From positions 1-64,000 of the IMG/VR virus record IMGVR_UViG_3300043403_000102: DNA of 64,000 nt; one strand, written 5' to 3'. This stretch comes from a virus. The position numbers were made by a program, and so were the translations under genes. The notes below the pieces were generated by a model. It worked only from the letters and a program-made list of their open reading frames with translations. It searched no databases and had not been told where the DNA came from. Of the stretch, positions 38,325-43,577 are shown piece after piece. Numbering within the stretch: position 1 is the first letter of the stretch; each line of letters starts with the position of its first letter.

Positions 38325-38660
38325 TCAGCGGAACGTCGTCAGGTGCTTTATCACCAGAGGCTCGGCCGCAGCCAGGCAGTCGGGGCACGTCACCGTCTCG
38401 AATAGGTAGGTCCAAGGGGCGCGCTCGTTGGCCCCGCAGTAGTGGGCCTGGAACATGTGGTTGATGGGGCGCCAGTGAAGCACCTGCGGAGGCCTGAGCA
38501 GCTCGCGTGTCGTGAGGCGCGTGACCACGAGCGGGGGTAGCGGCTTGGCGCTGACGTCCCACCAGAACCGCCACCACAAGCGACGCCAACCCCCGAGGGC
38601 CTCGAAGCGATGTCGGGCCAGGGCCAGCCTGCCTATGCGCAGCAGCCACGGGGAGGTCAT
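38325..38660 (-). CDS. His/Cys zinc-finger-like small protein
   Basis: H..YCG..VTCPDC. Confidence 0.55.
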   Translation of the reverse strand: MTSPWLLRIGRLALARHRFEALGGWRRLWWRFWWDVSAKPLPPLVVTRLTTRELLRPPQVLHWRPINHMFQAHYCGANERAPWTYLFETVTCPDCLAAAEPLVIKHLTTFR

Positions 38661-38845
38661 AGCTTTATGTGCTCCCTGCACAGGGGGCAAAGTATCTCGG
38701 TGGACAAGGGCTTAGCTATTGCCAGTAGATCGGTGGGTACCTCGCGCACGCACCGCGCTTTGAACGTCGGTCCCGTTACCGGCCAATAAGCCTGCAAGTG
38801 CACGACGCCTTCTAAGATCTCACGCAGCTCATCGGCTTTTGTCAT
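38657..38845 (-). CDS. Zinc-finger-like microprotein, family A
   Basis: LEGVVH..KARC..VP..LCPLC. Confidence 0.6.
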   Translation of the reverse strand: MTKADELREILEGVVHLQAYWPVTGPTFKARCVREVPTDLLAIAKPLSTEILCPLCREHIKL

Positions 38846-39288
38846 GTTCGATCACCTATGTGGTTGGGGAAGACCGCGCCCGCGGGCAGCTCAGGCATGA
38901 GGCCATTCACCACCAAGAAATCCCGACAGCTATACCCCGAGAGCTCCCGGTACAGCAGCATAGCCGTGCGCAAGGGTTCGTCGTCGCGGAGCATCTCGAT
39001 GACCTTCCTGCGGTGCCCGATGTCGACGTCGAAGTGTCCCGCGACGGCCACAGCCCACCGTGGCCCCCACCAGCGCATTTGATCATGAGCATTGCTATCC
39101 ACGGCTATTGCCTCCTTCAACAAGGTTGGGATCGCCTTCGCAAGCAACATGCGCGTAGCCCCTAGCCTAACGTAATCGATGGCCTCCATGTCGAGCTTGA
39201 CCTGGTTGATGCGATGGCCAACCGTCGCCTCATGATCTGAGCGCAGACGGTACCTTACGCCGCAGATTGAACACGTGCCCTTGGCCAT
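38842..39288 (-). CDS. Hypothetical protein
   Basis: N-terminal CSIC; coupled ORF. Confidence 0.55.
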   Translation of the reverse strand: MAKGTCSICGVRYRLRSDHEATVGHRINQVKLDMEAIDYVRLGATRMLLAKAIPTLLKEAIAVDSNAHDQMRWWGPRWAVAVAGHFDVDIGHRRKVIEMLRDDEPLRTAMLLYRELSGYSCRDFLVVNGLMPELPAGAVFPNHIGDRT

Positions 39289-39291
39289 TGG

Positions 39292-39735
39292 TCAGAGCCC
39301 CGGAAGATTGGCTTGCCCTGCGTCCTGGTACTTGACGAGGACCTTCGTCGCTTTCTTAACGGCGCGCCAACGCTTCATGAGAAGTCTGATTGAGTCGATG
39401 AGGTCGCCGTAGTTAGGGCTAGGCAACCTGACGTCGGCCCATGCGTCTGCGTCGCCCGCGTAGGCCGTGAACAACTCGAGGCCCCGTCGATGCATGCGGT
39501 TGCGCGTGTCTTCGTCGGCATAGTAACTCAGCACCTCGAAGGCCTTTGCTCGCCACGTAACGAGGTGACCATCAACGCCCCAGTCGCAGGCGAAGGCGAG
39601 CATGTAAGGCGGAACGTACGTGCCCCGGTGAATCCCGCCTTGGATCTTGATGAAGGTACCAGGGGCCATGTTGTTGCTGGCCGCCCTGGCACAGCCGTTC
39701 GTGACCTTGATGAAGCCCTCGGGAATCTTTGCCAT
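39292..39735 (-). CDS. Hypothetical protein
   Basis: Start MAKIPE with AGGAGG SD. Confidence 0.55.
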   Translation of the reverse strand: MAKIPEGFIKVTNGCARAASNNMAPGTFIKIQGGIHRGTYVPPYMLAFACDWGVDGHLVTWRAKAFEVLSYYADEDTRNRMHRRGLELFTAYAGDADAWADVRLPSPNYGDLIDSIRLLMKRWRAVKKATKVLVKYQDAGQANLPGL

Positions 39736-39736
39736 G

Positions 39737-39961
39737 TCAGCCCCTCCTGATGCTGTTAACGAGCACGCCGCATTCCTTGCACAAGGTGGTCCCCGGCAGG
39801 ACAATGCGCTCGGCAGGGACGAGCCAGGCATAGGGGACCATGTTGCCACAAAGCGTATGCGTAAGGCCCATCCCCGCGTAGGAATCCCCCCTGCGCCTTT
39901 CGTGAACGACCCCTGCCAGTTGGGCGTCCATGTATCGGGCTATGCGTTCCCTCTCAAGCAT
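39737..39961 (-). CDS. Zinc-finger-like microprotein, family A
   Basis: MDAQLAGVVH..TLCG.MVP..W..CKEC. Confidence 0.7.
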   Translation of the reverse strand: MLERERIARYMDAQLAGVVHERRRGDSYAGMGLTHTLCGNMVPYAWLVPAERIVLPGTTLCKECGVLVNSIRRG

Positions 39962-39967
39962 GTAGGC

Positions 39968-40564
39968 TCAGCAGGAGCAGGAGAAGAAGTTACCTCGGTC
40001 GGGGCCGACGTTCGCGCCCGTATAGATCGCGTAGTGCTCCCAGAAGTCATCACGCACTCGGTGCCCTTCCCAACGACCGCCGTCACTCAGGTAGTGGTCG
40101 TGAGCTAGGTACATGTCAGCCGCGTGCATGAACTCCTTAAGGTCGAGGCCTGCGGCTTCGGCCTCCTCGACCATCACGGCCCCCGCGCGCAGGAAGCGAT
40201 CGCGGCTCTCGCTGTCCTCGACTGGGGGTGAGTCAATCTGGGGGTGCGACCACACGTGGCGCAGGGACGTGATCTTGCGGGGTAGGACCACGAACCAGAA
40301 GTGCTCGCCTGGATCTACGTGGCGCGGAATGAAGGGGTCCACGATACCAAGGGCGTCGGCGGCATCGACGCACGCCACTGCGTCTATCCCGTTGCTCTGA
40401 AGGGTGACGTGCTGACCTCGCTGCAACCGATGAGCCGCACGGGCAGGAAGTACGGCGAGGTGGATGGCATCGCGTTTCTCCTTGTCGGTGATAATGGTCC
40501 CTAGGGTTTCGAGGGCGTCGGTGGAGACACTGCGCTTGTCGGCGCTCTTGGTTGGCTTGCTCAT
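39968..40564 (-). CDS. Hypothetical phage protein (leaderless)
   Basis: RDAIHLAV..GIVDPF..ITSLRHVWSHP..FSCSC; ATG 6 nt after TAAATA. Confidence 0.7.
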   Translation of the reverse strand: MSKPTKSADKRSVSTDALETLGTIITDKEKRDAIHLAVLPARAAHRLQRGQHVTLQSNGIDAVACVDAADALGIVDPFIPRHVDPGEHFWFVVLPRKITSLRHVWSHPQIDSPPVEDSESRDRFLRAGAVMVEEAEAAGLDLKEFMHAADMYLAHDHYLSDGGRWEGHRVRDDFWEHYAIYTGANVGPDRGNFFSCSC

Positions 40565-40570
40565 GCCTGG

Positions 40571-42178: not shown

Positions 42179-42184
42179 GCCTTG

Positions 42185-42210
42185 TATTTAGGGCAGCCAT
42201 TCAGGTTTAC
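42185..42210 (-). promoter_or_regulatory. GTAAAC-N14-TAAATA motif, copy 4
   Basis: ATG 6 nt downstream. Confidence 0.8.
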
Positions 42211-42452
42211 CCAGGGAACGAGGCACACTCGGGGCACACGGGGCTGTCGATGCCCACTGACGTCCCTTCAATCACGAGGACGCCACACAGGCCTTCGAGC
42301 AGGCCTTGCCCTATCGGACGTAGGCGCAGGTGCCGCACGCGATCCGTGTTCTCAAGGACTCTGCGCATGCGCTCGACCCGATTGCGCGCTCGACGCTCCT
42401 TAGCAGCACGGCGCTTGCGGCTGACGACTTGGATCTTCTGGCTCTTGGTCAT
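42207..42452 (-). CDS. Zinc-finger-like microprotein, family A (Arg-rich)
   Basis: MRRVL..VRH..GLCG..CPEC. Confidence 0.65.
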   Translation of the reverse strand: MTKSQKIQVVSRKRRAAKERRARNRVERMRRVLENTDRVRHLRLRPIGQGLLEGLCGVLVIEGTSVGIDSPVCPECASFPG

Positions 42453-42679
42453 CTCAGCGCCCGCCTTGCCATGCAGTCCTCGCATCGAACCAGCGTCTCG
42501 TCCCACCTCATACGGTGAGGGCTAAGGGTGATCCATTTGCGAGGCACCACGTCACCGCACAGTGTTTCGACAGGCTCGTCGTCAACATCCTCAGTGGGCC
42601 TTGACGATAATAAATGCTTGGGAAAATGGGACACCCCCACCAACTCAGCACGCATCAAGGACGCGGGGTTCATCTTCAT
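42449..42679 (-). CDS. Zinc-finger-like microprotein, family A
   Basis: MRAELVGVSH..ETLCGDVVP..W..CEDC. Confidence 0.75.
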   Translation of the reverse strand: MKMNPASLMRAELVGVSHFPKHLLSSRPTEDVDDEPVETLCGDVVPRKWITLSPHRMRWDETLVRCEDCMARRALR

Positions 42680-42921
42680 AGGCCCCTCAAGTAGGGCACA
42701 TGAATGCGATGGTATTCGCGCAAGCAGTCAGGGCACCAGTACGGGGTCTTGTCTGTGACCTCGTGAAAGCGCGTGGTGATCCACTTGAACGTCACGACCT
42801 CGCCGCACAAGGTTTCGATGGGGTGCTGGTCATACAGTTGCTCTCGGGACAAGACATGCCTGTGGTAGTGAAATACCCCGCGAAGGTCGGCACGCATAAG
42901 GTTTGCCTGGTCCATCACCAT
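42676..42921 (-). CDS. Zinc-finger-like microprotein, family A
   Basis: MRADLRGVFH..ETLCGEVV..W..CPDC. Confidence 0.75.
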   Translation of the reverse strand: MVMDQANLMRADLRGVFHYHRHVLSREQLYDQHPIETLCGEVVTFKWITTRFHEVTDKTPYWCPDCLREYHRIHVPYLRGL

Positions 42922-42931
42922 TTCCCCTGCT

Positions 42932-43141
42932 TCATCCTACGACTGCCGTTCCATCTAGGCAGGCGGGGCACCAGGGGTATTCGAGGGACGCGAATCGCTC
43001 CTCGGCAGTGACGATGACCCACGAACGGTGAACCACATCGCCGCAAAGCGCTTTCGTAAGTGGTTTCGCCACCTCACCAACGGCAATGAAGTGCTTCACA
43101 CCTATGAGGGTATCTCGCATGAGTGCGGCTCGCGCGTTCAT
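42932..43141 (-). CDS. Zinc-finger-like microprotein, family A
   Basis: MRDTLIGVKH..ALCGDVV..W..CPAC. Confidence 0.75.
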   Translation of the reverse strand: MNARAALMRDTLIGVKHFIAVGEVAKPLTKALCGDVVHRSWVIVTAEERFASLEYPWCPACLDGTAVVG

Positions 43142-43338
43142 CGGGCCTGCCAAAGCTGGAGGCACTCCGCGCACTTGATGTCCTCGGGGAAGTGCACGAT
43201 GTGATTGCTCCCTACCGATAACTTTCGCCCACAGTACGCCCATGAAGTTGCGGCGTGCACAGAGTACGCCCTTACGATATGAGGCCCGGTCAGCAAGGCC
43301 TCTACTCGCGCGGCGGCTTTCAGATCATCAAAGGTCAT
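43138..43338 (-). CDS. Zinc-finger-like microprotein, family A
   Basis: VEALLTGPH..AYCG..CAEC. Confidence 0.65.
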   Translation of the reverse strand: MTFDDLKAAARVEALLTGPHIVRAYSVHAATSWAYCGRKLSVGSNHIVHFPEDIKCAECLQLWQAR

Positions 43339-43577
43339 CCGCCCACCGGGTCCTGCCTCTTTATCACCCCGTGAAGGGCCAGGCATTCGAGGCAGGCGGG
43401 CGCTGGCATGATCCACGGGTTGAACTCGGAGAACCACTGAGCCGGGACGTAGTCCCTGCATAGCGTCTCTATGAGGGGGGCTGTGCAGGCTCGGCCCGGG
43501 TACCTCCTGAGATGCTTAACCCCGTTAAGGGCCGCCCGCATAATACCCGCCTGCACCTCCTTGGTCATCCGCCCACC
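43333..43577. repeat. 15-bp direct repeat ggtcatccgcccacc flanking one microprotein gene
   Basis: Copies at 43333-43347 and 43563-43577. Confidence 0.9.
43335..43568 (-). CDS. Zinc-finger-like microprotein, family A
   Basis: MRAALNGVKH..ETLC..VP..W..CLEC. Confidence 0.75.
   Translation of the reverse strand: MTKEVQAGIMRAALNGVKHLRRYPGRACTAPLIETLCRDYVPAQWFSEFNPWIMPAPACLECLALHGVIKRQDPVGG

What the first reader, a model, noticed from the sequence alone, without database searches (positions are those of the whole stretch)
38657..43568. Tandem array of ~13 diverged H-C-CxxC microproteins (family A)
Eleven consecutive genes (40941-43568) plus 39737 and 38657 share M-R-A-[DE]-L-x-x-V-x-H ... T-L-C-G-x-x-V-P-x-x-W ... 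C-x-x-C (60-90 aa). The loops between the ligands are hypervariable in length and sequence. Most genes overlap by ATGA and are fed by the TAAATA promoters. A fixed scaffold with variable loops suggests a diversified binder library (anti-defence or host-protein inhibitors) with a shared N-terminal docking helix. The array starts exactly at the TerL ATPase stop.
Basis: partly seen in the sequence, partly recalled or inferred. Interest (0 to 1): 0.85.

Follow-up and report, generated by a model that had tools for sequence, protein, structure and literature searches.

The report
Phage array of DUF3039-like zinc-finger microproteins
An uncultured freshwater phage carries a back-to-back row of about a dozen tiny, very diverged genes that all keep one histidine and three cysteines (a probable zinc clip) and are distant relatives of DUF3039, a small protein of unknown function found in nearly all actinobacteria; what they do is untested.

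Summary
On the minus strand, 11 consecutive genes (40941-43568) plus 39737-39961 and 38657-38845 encode 62-91 aa proteins with an invariant H, C and CxxC. In leave-one-out profile searches against all 1403 ORFs of the 82-kb phage, 12 of 13 are recovered ahead of every non-family ORF. A2 is not, and neither is a possible 14th gene at 38325-38660.

New here: the family is not an orphan fold. It is a remote branch of Pfam DUF3039 (PF11238). Profile-profile probability is 85-89% against at most 1.1% for 31 scrambled controls. Cultured-phage DUF3039 proteins bridge the two groups. The family-A and DUF3039 models share the same element order and the same single weak PDB neighbour.

DUF3039 is single-copy in 39 of 41 actinobacterial genomes, in 47 cultured actinophages and in 79 of 80 viral loci. 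A 12-14-copy diverged array is therefore unusual.

Function is untested. The best reading is a co-expressed set of zinc-stabilised small binders. The nearest tested relative, Waterfoul gene 80, is absent from that phage's list of growth inhibitors.

This scan has noted similar His-Cys3 arrays in other uncultured phages (unchecked AI notes).

The parts
43565..44425 (-). TerL ATPase half (286 aa); its stop overlaps the A1 start (ATGA). Context gene, not a family member.
   Evidence: tblastn to phage terminases at 25-30% identity. Matches residues 13-250 of the intact TerL of L002. Junction.
43335..43568 (-). A1, 77 aa
   Evidence: Leave-one-out E 4.6e-12; alignment.
43138..43338 (-). A2, 66 aa; member by position and H/CG/CxxC pattern only
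   Evidence: Leave-one-out E 0.46, not significant. Orthologue variant P0008 keeps the ligands. GC3 0.69.
42932..43141 (-). A3, 69 aa
   Evidence: Leave-one-out E 1.3e-11.
42676..42921 (-). A4, 81 aa; the member that was modelled
   Evidence: Leave-one-out E 2.9e-14. AF2 pLDDT 77.3, pTM 0.62. Weak DUF3039 hit, E 0.09, profile positions 6-54 of 56.
42449..42679 (-). A5, 76 aa
   Evidence: Leave-one-out E 8.8e-14. phmmer to A4 at 3e-18.
42207..42452 (-). A6, 81 aa, with an arginine-rich N-terminal extension (pI 11.3)
   Evidence: Leave-one-out E 0.023 with no unrelated ORF above it. DUF3039 match at 13.7 bits. pI.
42185..42210 (-). Promoter-like motif GTAAAC-N14-TAAATA, 6 nt before the A7 ATG
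41903..42178 (-). A7, 91 aa
   Evidence: Leave-one-out E 4.8e-6.
41661..41906 (-). A8, 81 aa
   Evidence: Leave-one-out E 8.6e-11. Orthologue in L114 gives dN/dS 0.19.
41404..41670 (-). A9, 88 aa
   Evidence: Leave-one-out E 4.6e-18.
41165..41407 (-). A10, 80 aa
   Evidence: Leave-one-out E 7.5e-16.
40941..41168 (-). A11, 75 aa
   Evidence: Leave-one-out E 8.2e-16.
40571..40596 (-). Promoter-like motif before the 198-aa gene that heads the operon holding A12, A13 and A14
39737..39961 (-). A12, 74 aa, detached member
   Evidence: Leave-one-out E 1.8e-13.
38657..38845 (-). A13, 62 aa, detached member
   Evidence: Leave-one-out E 6.1e-6. Pairs with P0016 in the tree at 96/81 support.
38325..38660 (-). 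Candidate A14, 111 aa, ATGA-coupled to A13; C-terminal H..YCG..W..CPDC; not significant by profile
   Evidence: E 0.6. GC3 0.87.

Best explanation
WHAT IT IS (well supported): family A is a set of 12 statistically supported paralogues, plus A2 and a possible A14. Each is a single-domain microprotein built on a His-Cys3 metal clip. The predicted order of elements is: N-terminal helix, strand carrying the His, short helix, strand ending in (T)LCG, strand with a Trp, variable loop, then CxxC opening the C-terminal helix.

The domain is a remote relative of DUF3039 (PF11238). DUF3039 is a single-copy protein of unknown function in almost all actinobacteria sampled, and many actinophages also carry it as a single copy.

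In this phage lineage the domain kept the ligands and the LCG/W core. It lost the DUF3039-specific invariant GDHERF and WVPSRDP motifs, gained an N-terminal helix, and was amplified by tandem duplication. Neighbouring copies are the most alike: A4/A5 and A9/A10/A11.

HOW IT IS EXPRESSED (inferred from sequence): the genes sit in three operons headed by a phage-specific promoter motif (GTAAAC-N14-15-TAAATA, with the ATG 6-9 nt downstream). The same motif precedes replication genes. A1-A6 are translationally coupled to the TerL ATPase gene. All copies should therefore be made together, in the middle phase of infection.

WHAT IT DOES (inferred, untested): the copies act as small zinc-stabilised protein binders. 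Their variable loops and tails give each copy a different target among host factors or defence proteins. The conserved N-terminal helix gives them a common partner or a common way of pairing.
For: Family reality. Coding status: GC3 pattern; A8 orthologue dN/dS 0.19.

Homology to DUF3039:
- hhalign of the core nine against 26 DUF3039 sequences gives probability 89%, P 2.3e-6, over 49 columns, with H, LCG, W and CxxC aligned.
- The tool's own hhalign gives 84.8%.
- The reversed alignment and 30 column-shuffled alignments give at most 1.1%.
- Family B, which also has an H..C..CxxC pattern, gives 4% against DUF3039. The ligand pattern alone therefore does not produce the signal.
- Gordonia phage BrutonGaster gp65 matches both the DUF3039 HMM (2.4e-16) and the family A HMM (4.5e-7 among 300 ORFs). 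Its eight best phmmer hits among the 1403 genome ORFs are all family A.
- Waterfoul gp80 behaves the same way, with its top six hits all family A.
- The family A HMM finds 11 viral DUF3039 proteins at E 2e-4 to 1e-2 among 8595 ORFs.

Structure:
- The A4 model (pLDDT 77) and the DUF3039 model (pLDDT 85) have the same order of elements.
- The ESM Atlas structure search places a DUF3039 cluster (TM 0.57) and a zf-HC3 cluster (TM 0.56/0.59) nearest.

Copy number elsewhere: one copy in 39 of 41 genomes, one place in each of 47 cultured phages, and one copy in 79 of 80 viral loci.

Expression: promoter motif 7 observed against 0 expected; junctions.

Diversification:
- pI ranges from 5.7 to 11.3.
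- A2/P0008 changes are concentrated in loop 1.
- In A13/P0016 only the N-terminal helix is conserved.
- Array content differs in contig L114.
Against: - No binding, zinc content or phenotype was measured.
- No family A member reaches the Pfam DUF3039 cut-off: best 13-14 bits against 22.7.
- The zf-HC3 HMM gives no match at all.
- I could not read model coordinates, so convergence of the four ligands on one site is assumed, not seen.
- The one orthologue pair with DNA (A8) is under purifying selection, not diversifying selection.
- A3/P0013 differ mostly in the tail, not in loop 1.
- Waterfoul gene 80 is not a growth inhibitor. Nothing yet shows that a protein of this superfamily interferes with the host.
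- The host is not identified. There is no WhiB gene, and the ParB-methyltransferase relatives lie mostly in Alphaproteobacteria.
Confidence: 0.45

Rival explanations
1. The copies are nucleic-acid-binding zinc fingers. They would act as small regulators of phage or host transcription, translation or RNA processing, each recognising a different site.
For: - Small zinc ribbons often bind nucleic acids (general knowledge).
- A6 carries an arginine-rich N-terminal stretch and has pI 11.3; candidate A14 has pI 10.7.
- Single-copy phage DUF3039 genes sit among DNA/RNA-metabolism genes: RNA ligase, helicase, ribonucleotide reductase.
- A ResIII-type helicase lies next to the host gene in 5 of 26 loci.
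Against: - Eight of the 13 members lie between pI 6.0 and 7.8, and the host DUF3039 domain has median pI 6.0.
- There is no match to any DNA- or RNA-binding family, apart from an 11-residue dksA/traR fragment in A12 at E 0.035.
Confidence: 0.2
2. The copies are functional mimics or dominant-negative competitors of the host DUF3039 protein. They would occupy its cellular partner.
For: Homology to DUF3039. Many phages carry near-canonical DUF3039 at 55-74% identity, which suggests the host pathway matters to phages.
Against: - Family A has lost the positions that are invariant or nearly so in DUF3039 outside the ligands: the GDHERF motif, K after CG, and WVPSRDP.
- A dozen diverged copies are not needed to mimic one protein.
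- Family A is separated from the DUF3039 clade by a long branch (2.04, support 98/96).
Confidence: 0.12
3. The copies are packaging accessories. They would be small factors working with the split terminase, for example helping the ATPase and nuclease halves to assemble or to recognise DNA.
For: A1 is ATGA-coupled to the TerL ATPase gene. The array lies between the two TerL halves. A distant phage, L002, has many small CxxC ORFs just upstream of its intact TerL.
Against: - A12-A14 lie in another operon, and A7-A11 have their own promoter.
- Single-copy relatives in cultured phages are not next to terminase genes.
- A dozen paralogues are hard to reconcile with a stoichiometric packaging role.
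Confidence: 0.08
4. The ORFs are decaying duplicates or mis-called frames with no function.
For: A2 and A14 are not significant members. Contig L114 has lost most of the array.
Against: - Every copy has an intact frame and conserved ligands.
- The coding GC3 pattern is present.
- dN/dS is 0.19 for A8.
- Start-stop coupling is precise.
- Near-identical copies occur in four further metagenome runs.
Confidence: 0.03

Closest known systems
Pfam DUF3039 (PF11238); listed as SCO2947 / ML1016, 97 aa, in a table of actinobacteria-specific conserved genes (PMC4255298, passage seen)
   Same: - Same order of ligands and core motifs: H-[YF], about 17-22 residues, LCG, W, then CxxC opening a helix.
- Profile-profile probability 85-89%.
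- Same predicted order of secondary-structure elements.
- Same sole weak PDB neighbour.
- Function unknown in both.
   Different: - Family A scores below the Pfam cut-off.
- It lacks the invariant GDHERF and WVPSRDP motifs and has an extra N-terminal helix.
- It is phage-borne and present in 12-14 diverged tandem copies, not one conserved chromosomal copy.
Single-copy DUF3039-like genes of cultured actinophages, e.g. Gordonia phage BrutonGaster gp65 and Mycobacterium phage Waterfoul gp80
   Same: They are phage-encoded, 74-77 aa, and lie among small early or DNA-metabolism genes. They match both the DUF3039 and the family A profiles.
   Different: - One copy per genome in all 47 records.
- They still score as DUF3039: 47-53 bits on my HMM.
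- Waterfoul gene 80 is absent from the table of 30 growth-inhibitory genes out of 92 tested (PMC9339283, section 11 read; passages). The per-gene supplementary figure could not be opened.
Pfam zf-HC3 (PF16827), an uncharacterised His-Cys3 zinc-finger family
   Same: Same His plus three Cys logic. Nearest named clusters in the ESM Atlas by language-model features (0.92 and 0.91, with zf-HC3 on 39% and 58% of members) and by predicted structure (TM 0.56/0.59). All are mostly Actinomycetota.
   Different: The zf-HC3 HMM finds nothing in this genome at E up to 10. I could not obtain zf-HC3 sequences for a profile comparison: 0 of 41 and 0 of 401 actinobacterial genomes scored over its cut-off.
PDB 3rms, uncharacterised protein Svir_20580 of Saccharomonospora viridis

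Membership tests
DUF3039 (PF11238) | Score at or above the Pfam gathering cut-off (22.7 bits) | tested here: not met
   Best scores are 13 bits (A4, E 0.09) and 13.7 bits (A6). Two of 13 members reach E of 0.1 or better.
DUF3039 (PF11238) | Ligand and core pattern H-[YF] ... LCG ... W ... C-P-x-C in that order | tested here: met
   Invariant H, C and CxxC, with majority TLCG and W. These columns align to the DUF3039 columns in hhalign.
DUF3039 (PF11238) | Detectable homology by profile comparison and through intermediate sequences | tested here: met
   Probability 85-89% against at most 1.1% in 31 controls. Bridges gp65 and gp80. Direct HMM hits to 11 viral DUF3039 proteins.
DUF3039 (PF11238) | Invariant or near-invariant non-ligand motifs (G-D-H-E-R-F before the His; K-x-W-x-P-x-R-D-P after CG) | tested here: not met
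   Invariant in 26 DUF3039 sequences and absent from the family A consensus.
DUF3039 (PF11238) | Single conserved copy per genome | tested here: not met
   One match in each of 39 of 41 genomes (34 of 36 without the five unpublished ones). Here there are 12-14 copies.
zf-HC3 (PF16827) | Match to the family HMM | tested here: not met
   No match in the whole 82-kb genome at E up to 10. hmmscan of all 13 members lists no zf-HC3.
zf-HC3 (PF16827) | Shared fold or features with family members | tested here: inconclusive
   ESM Atlas nearest clusters carry zf-HC3 (features 0.91-0.92; TM 0.56/0.59). No alignment or E-value is available, and no zf-HC3 sequences could be fetched.
Zinc-binding protein (His-Cys3 site) | One metal ion bound by the four invariant residues | not testable with these tools
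   Inferred from invariance and from the CxxC at a helix start in the model. Model coordinates were not readable.
Anti-defence or host-takeover protein | Demonstrated inhibition of a host defence system or host protein | not testable with these tools
   No PADLOC search was run. No experiment exists for this family. Waterfoul gene 80 is not toxic.

The most novel reading that the evidence does not exclude
A host 'signature' zinc-finger protein of actinobacteria (DUF3039) was captured by phages. In this lineage it was turned into a diversified library: a dozen co-expressed variants keep only the metal clip and a common N-terminal docking helix. Each variable surface neutralises a different host defence or host factor. 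DUF3039 itself would then sit at a node of phage-host conflict.
Probability: 0.2. Interest if true: 0.8.

Novelty: new variant of a known kind. Interest (0 to 1): 0.55.

Why it matters
DUF3039 is one of the small proteins conserved across actinobacteria whose role nobody knows (PMC4255298, passage seen).

Three results here give a new angle on it:
- Phages carry it widely: 47 cultured actinophages and at least 114 viral-contig stretches.
- One phage lineage has amplified a stripped-down version into a 12-14-copy array.
- Whatever this zinc clip touches in the cell is therefore probably relevant to infection.

The array also offers a natural mutational scan of the fold. It shows which positions must stay (H, LCG, W, CxxC) and which are free. 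It is also a compact set of candidates for anti-defence or host-takeover screens.

I found no paper describing such an array. Similar arrays have been noted by this scan in other uncultured phages, so the phenomenon may be general.

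Tried and rejected
Homologue searches
- PHROGs gave no family for any of the 13 members except one hit at E 0.029.
- The word-indexed protein search with the family alignment returned only the phage's own proteins and close variants: 8 hits.
- The full HMMER search of 1.84 billion representatives returned 18 hits at E of 0.001 or better. Of these, 10 are listed at E of 1e-10 or better. The rest include the variants P0008, P0013 and P0016 and marginal P0015, P0017, P0018 and P0019. I read P0017 and P0019 as repeat-protein noise.
- All informative variants come from short metagenome contigs of 1.6-9.8 kb.
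- tblastn of A9 and A4 against 50,697 phage records gave no match and one chance-level Vibrio phage hit at E 0.2.
- Streptomyces phage Kromp is the nearest cultured phage by capsid protein (36%). Bases 1-50000 of its 58,268 hold no family A, family B or DUF3039 match at E below 0.08.

Structure searches
- Foldseek against the PDB gave nothing at E of 0.001 or better (best E 2.2).
- Foldseek against BFVD gave only uncharacterised small phage proteins: best E 0.09, TM 0.47-0.59.
- PDB sequence searches with family A, one DUF3039 protein and the DUF3039 profile gave nothing meaningful. The sirtuin-2 zinc module appeared at E 0.1, and designed 'Cake' repeat proteins were noise.

Family A versus family B
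- hhalign probability is 18%, so relatedness is not shown.

Host
- No WhiB was found.
- ParB-methyltransferase relatives are spread over Alphaproteobacteria, Acidobacteria and others, and are not informative.
- TerL hits are spread over many hosts.

Sequencing runs
- No RNA holder was listed.
- Laying four DNA runs gave near-identical short contigs and no informative variation in the array. A part without cover there says nothing.

DUF3039 neighbourhoods
- AlgH-like DUF179 lies upstream in 12 of 26 loci, a ResIII helicase in 5 and malic enzyme in 5. None gives a mechanism.

Tree
- Family A is unresolved: 18 of 24 inner branches are open. No order of duplication can be given.

Literature
- DUF3039: 6 papers, none functional (passages read).
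- zf-HC3: 2 papers, 1 listed, not relevant.
- Rv2708c: a name I recalled as a possible M. tuberculosis orthologue and did not verify; 2 irrelevant papers.
- 3rms / Svir_20580: none relevant.
- Two broader phrase searches: none relevant.

The Waterfoul supplementary figure with the per-gene plates for non-toxic genes, including gene 80, was not seen.

Full report
SETTING

The window is bases 1-64000 of an 82,088-base IMG/VR virus record that CheckV rates 96% complete. GC is 0.58-0.67 throughout. The genes I annotated all lie on the minus strand.

Reading in the direction of transcription, the order is:
- replication genes: helicases, DnaB-like helicase, DNA polymerase, UvsX-like recombinase, SbcCD-like nuclease;
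- five small family B genes;
- a 286-aa terminase ATPase gene at 43565-44425;
- the family A array;
- methyltransferases;
- a separate terminase nuclease gene at 29275-30048;
- portal and capsid genes.

The array DNA occurs in freshwater and freshwater-sediment metagenome runs. Six of 23 listed rows hold at least half of the sampled words, and two of those six may be the source sample. Four further runs, from four studies, yielded near-identical contigs when laid on the region.

THE OBSERVATION

Their alignment has exactly four invariant columns: one His, one Cys, and the two Cys of a CxxC. The majority consensus is A..MRA.L.GV.H ... TLCG..VP..W ... C..C.

Nine members recognise each other pairwise at 1e-4 to 1e-18. 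I built a profile from the other members and searched all 1403 six-frame ORFs of the genome. In that test, 12 of the 13 are recovered with no unrelated ORF above them. A6 is the weakest at E 0.023. A2 is not recovered (E 0.46), and neither is a possible 14th gene at 38325-38660 (E 0.6).

All copies show the GC3 > GC1 > GC2 pattern of real genes in this genome. The A8 orthologue on another contig differs by 14 synonymous and 11 non-synonymous changes, giving dN/dS 0.19.

Eight of the 11 junctions from the terminase ATPase gene through A11 are ATGA overlaps, and the first of them is the terminase stop itself.

The motif GTAAAC-N13-16-TAAATA occurs seven times in the window against none in 100 shuffles, always on the minus strand. 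The next ATG lies 6-9 nt after it at the sites I inspected. Sites lie before A7, before the 198-aa gene that heads the A12-A14 operon, and just after A14. Others precede replication genes. A variant with GTAACC lies before family B gene B3.

The caveats are that A2 rests on pattern and position only, and that the 'MRA[DE]L' and 'TLCG' motifs are majority features, not universal ones.

WHAT THE FAMILY IS

Standard libraries gave almost nothing:
- no PHROG family;
- no Pfam family over threshold;
- two members with weak but near-full-length DUF3039 hits;
- only the phage's own proteins and a handful of metagenomic variants in searches of 5.8 and 1.84 billion proteins.

I followed the DUF3039 lead. 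I took 26 DUF3039 sequences from actinobacterial genomes, where the family has one match in each of 39 of 41 genomes sampled (34 of 36 without five unpublished genomes).

Profile-profile comparison gave 89% probability for the core nine members. His aligned on His, TLCG on ALCG, Trp on Trp and CxxC on CPxC. The tool's own run gave 84.8%. A reversed alignment and 30 column-shuffled DUF3039 alignments gave at most 1.1%. Family B, which has the same kind of ligand pattern, gave 4%.

Intermediates close the gap. A host DUF3039 query finds one place in each of 47 cultured phage records, all of them actinophages: Gordonia 23, Mycobacterium 20, Microbacterium 3, one 'Actinomycetia phage'.
- BrutonGaster gp65 matches the DUF3039 profile at 2.4e-16 and the family A profile at 4.5e-7. 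Its eight best hits among the 1403 ORFs of this genome are all family A.
- Waterfoul gp80 behaves the same way, with its top six hits all family A.
- Among 8595 ORFs from 80 viral-contig loci, the family A profile picks out 11 viral DUF3039 proteins at E 2e-4 to 1e-2.

Predicted structures agree. The A4 model (pLDDT 77.3, pTM 0.62) and the DUF3039 model (pLDDT 84.7, pTM 0.68) show the same succession: strand with the His, helix, strand before the Cys, short strand, loop, and CxxC at the start of the last helix. Family A has an additional N-terminal helix.

The ESM Atlas puts DUF3039 and zf-HC3 clusters nearest, all mainly from Actinomycetota. The zf-HC3 HMM itself finds nothing here, and I could not obtain zf-HC3 sequences to test further.

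A maximum-likelihood tree puts host and phage DUF3039 in one clade (support 98/96) on a long branch from family A. Family A is internally unresolved.

My conclusion is that family A is a remote, phage-specific branch of the DUF3039 kind of His-Cys3 domain. It is not a DUF3039 member by Pfam's threshold. It also lacks the non-ligand motifs that are invariant in DUF3039.

HOW UNUSUAL THE ARRAY IS

DUF3039 is single-copy in the bacterial genomes and in every one of the 47 cultured phage records. It is also single-copy within 8 kb in 79 of 80 viral loci. The exception, L122, has a canonical copy followed by a diverged one. Twelve to fourteen diverged copies is therefore far outside the usual range.

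The similarity pattern (A4/A5, A9/A10/A11 and A8/A9 closest) fits tandem duplication followed by long divergence.

Array content is not fixed. Contig L114 has GC about 0.52 and is otherwise unrelated. It carries the last 72 codons of the terminase ATPase gene, a 5'-truncated A7 interrupted by a 249-aa methyltransferase-like ORF, an intact A8, and then the sequence that here follows A11. L114 may be a mosaic phage or an assembly chimera, so I treat this as a hint only.

A 193-aa metagenomic protein (P0018) strings three such modules in one chain.

WHAT IT MAY DO

Nothing was measured, so this part is inference.

Points in favour of diversified small binders:
- only the clip, the LCG/W core and the N-terminal helix are kept;
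- loops differ in length, with Cys-to-CxxC spacing of 12-24;
- charge differs, with pI 5.7-11.3;
- between A2 and its variant P0008, 10 of 15 loop-1 positions differ, against 2 of 20 before the His and 0 of 11 from the CxxC on;
- A13 and P0016 share 15 of their first 16 residues and nothing alignable after.

Points against, or at least cautionary:
- A8 is under purifying selection;
- A3 and P0013 differ mainly in the tail;
- the closest relative ever tested, Waterfoul gene 80, is not among the 30 growth-inhibitory genes found when 92 of 94 genes were overexpressed in M. smegmatis (PMC9339283; section 11 and passages read; supplementary figure not seen).

That last result fits a non-toxic role such as counter-defence or fine regulation better than shut-off of an essential process. 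It concerns a distant, single-copy relative, however.

Loss of the DUF3039-specific motifs argues against simple mimicry of the host protein. The near-neutral charge of most copies argues against general nucleic-acid binding, though A6 and A14 are strongly basic.

The position after the terminase ATPase gene may simply reflect an accessory-gene island. About 13.5 kb of mostly unknown genes separates the two terminase halves.

HOST

The host is probably an actinobacterium, but this is not shown.

For:
- the DUF3039 link;
- the Atlas neighbours;
- the nearest cultured capsid protein, from a Streptomyces phage at 36% identity;
- high GC;
- promoters placed so close to the ATG that the mRNAs would be nearly leaderless. 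Leaderless mRNAs being common in actinobacteria is my recollection, not a result of a call.

Against or neutral:
- no WhiB;
- terminase and methyltransferase relatives are spread over many phyla.

NOVELTY AND SCORE

The domain belongs to a catalogued but uncharacterised kind. The new elements are a diverged subfamily with its own N-terminal helix, its amplification into a co-expressed array, and the finding that phage-borne DUF3039 is widespread.

I found no paper on any of this. Earlier notes of this scan describe larger His-Cys3 arrays in other uncultured phages, with zf-HC3 named as closest. I did not test whether those are homologous to family A.

I rate the finding a new variant of a known kind, with interest 0.55.

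Noticed in passing
window 29275-30048 (-) and 43565-44425 (-): The large terminase is split. The 286-aa ATPase gene matches residues 13-250 of the intact TerL of L002 (E 3e-40). A 257-aa gene 13.5 kb downstream matches residues 299-532, the nuclease part (E 6e-35). The family A array begins at the stop of the ATPase half.
   Followed up: partly
window 35147-35172, 38298-38323, 40571-40596, 42185-42210, 53449-53474, 56715-56741, 59436-59461 (all -); variants near 45100 and at genome 71499: Conserved promoter-like motif GTAAAC-N13-16-TAAATA: 7 exact matches against 0 expected. The ATG lies 6-9 nt after the TAAATA at several sites, so the transcripts would be nearly leaderless. The motif is shared by replication genes and the microprotein operons.
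   Followed up: partly
genome 63576-64259 (-), partly beyond the window end: A 228-codon open frame has weak Sigma70_r2 (E 8e-4) and Sigma70_r4_2 (E 0.013) matches in the right order. It is a candidate phage sigma factor that might read the promoter motif above.
   Followed up: partly
window 44418-45607 (-): Family B: five small genes with HxxxGPC ... CPAC, just upstream of the terminase ATPase gene. No relation to family A (hhalign 18%) or to DUF3039 (4%) is shown. The long 159-aa reading of B5 has a non-coding GC pattern in its N-terminal part.
   Followed up: partly
L114 3756-5361 (contig Ga0315273_10001355): An otherwise unrelated contig of GC about 0.52 carries a terminase ATPase 3' remnant, a truncated A7 split by a 249-aa methyltransferase-like ORF, an intact A8 orthologue, and the sequence that follows A11 here. 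It may be a mosaic phage or an assembly chimera.
   Followed up: partly
L002 2070-6964 (IMGVR_UViG_3300005077_001240): A distant phage with an intact 570-aa TerL has about nine small CxxC-rich ORFs directly upstream of it. One (6582-6842) weakly matches family A (E 0.0095 within the ORFs of two loci).
   Followed up: no
P0018 (193 aa, Logan contigs up to 2658 bases): A metagenomic protein with three tandem H...CG...CxxC modules in one chain. The third module gives a weak DUF3039 hit (E 0.037).
   Followed up: no
L121-L200 (IMG/VR); L122 3956-4418; L186, L188, L189 near 6241-6420: Canonical DUF3039 (55-74% identity to a host copy) is encoded on at least 114 viral-contig stretches; the median GC of the 80 loci kept is 0.44. 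L122 has two adjacent copies. Three loci also hold a 59-60-aa H...TLCG...W...CDAC protein that matches the family A profile (E 7e-5 to 3e-3).
   Followed up: partly
window 36856-37023 (-): Another small Cys/His ORF of 55 aa (YYCEDH ... CPLC). It is unrelated to family A by profile.
   Followed up: no
window 42207-42452 (A6) and 38325-38660 (A14): A6 has an arginine-rich N-terminal stretch (pI 11.3). Candidate A14 has a Trp/Arg-rich N-terminal half with 8 Trp (pI 10.7).
   Followed up: no
L084-L113 (actinobacterial DUF3039 loci): An AlgH-like DUF179 gene lies upstream in the same orientation in 12 of 26 loci. A ResIII/DEAD helicase lies next to DUF3039 in 5 of 26.
   Followed up: partly
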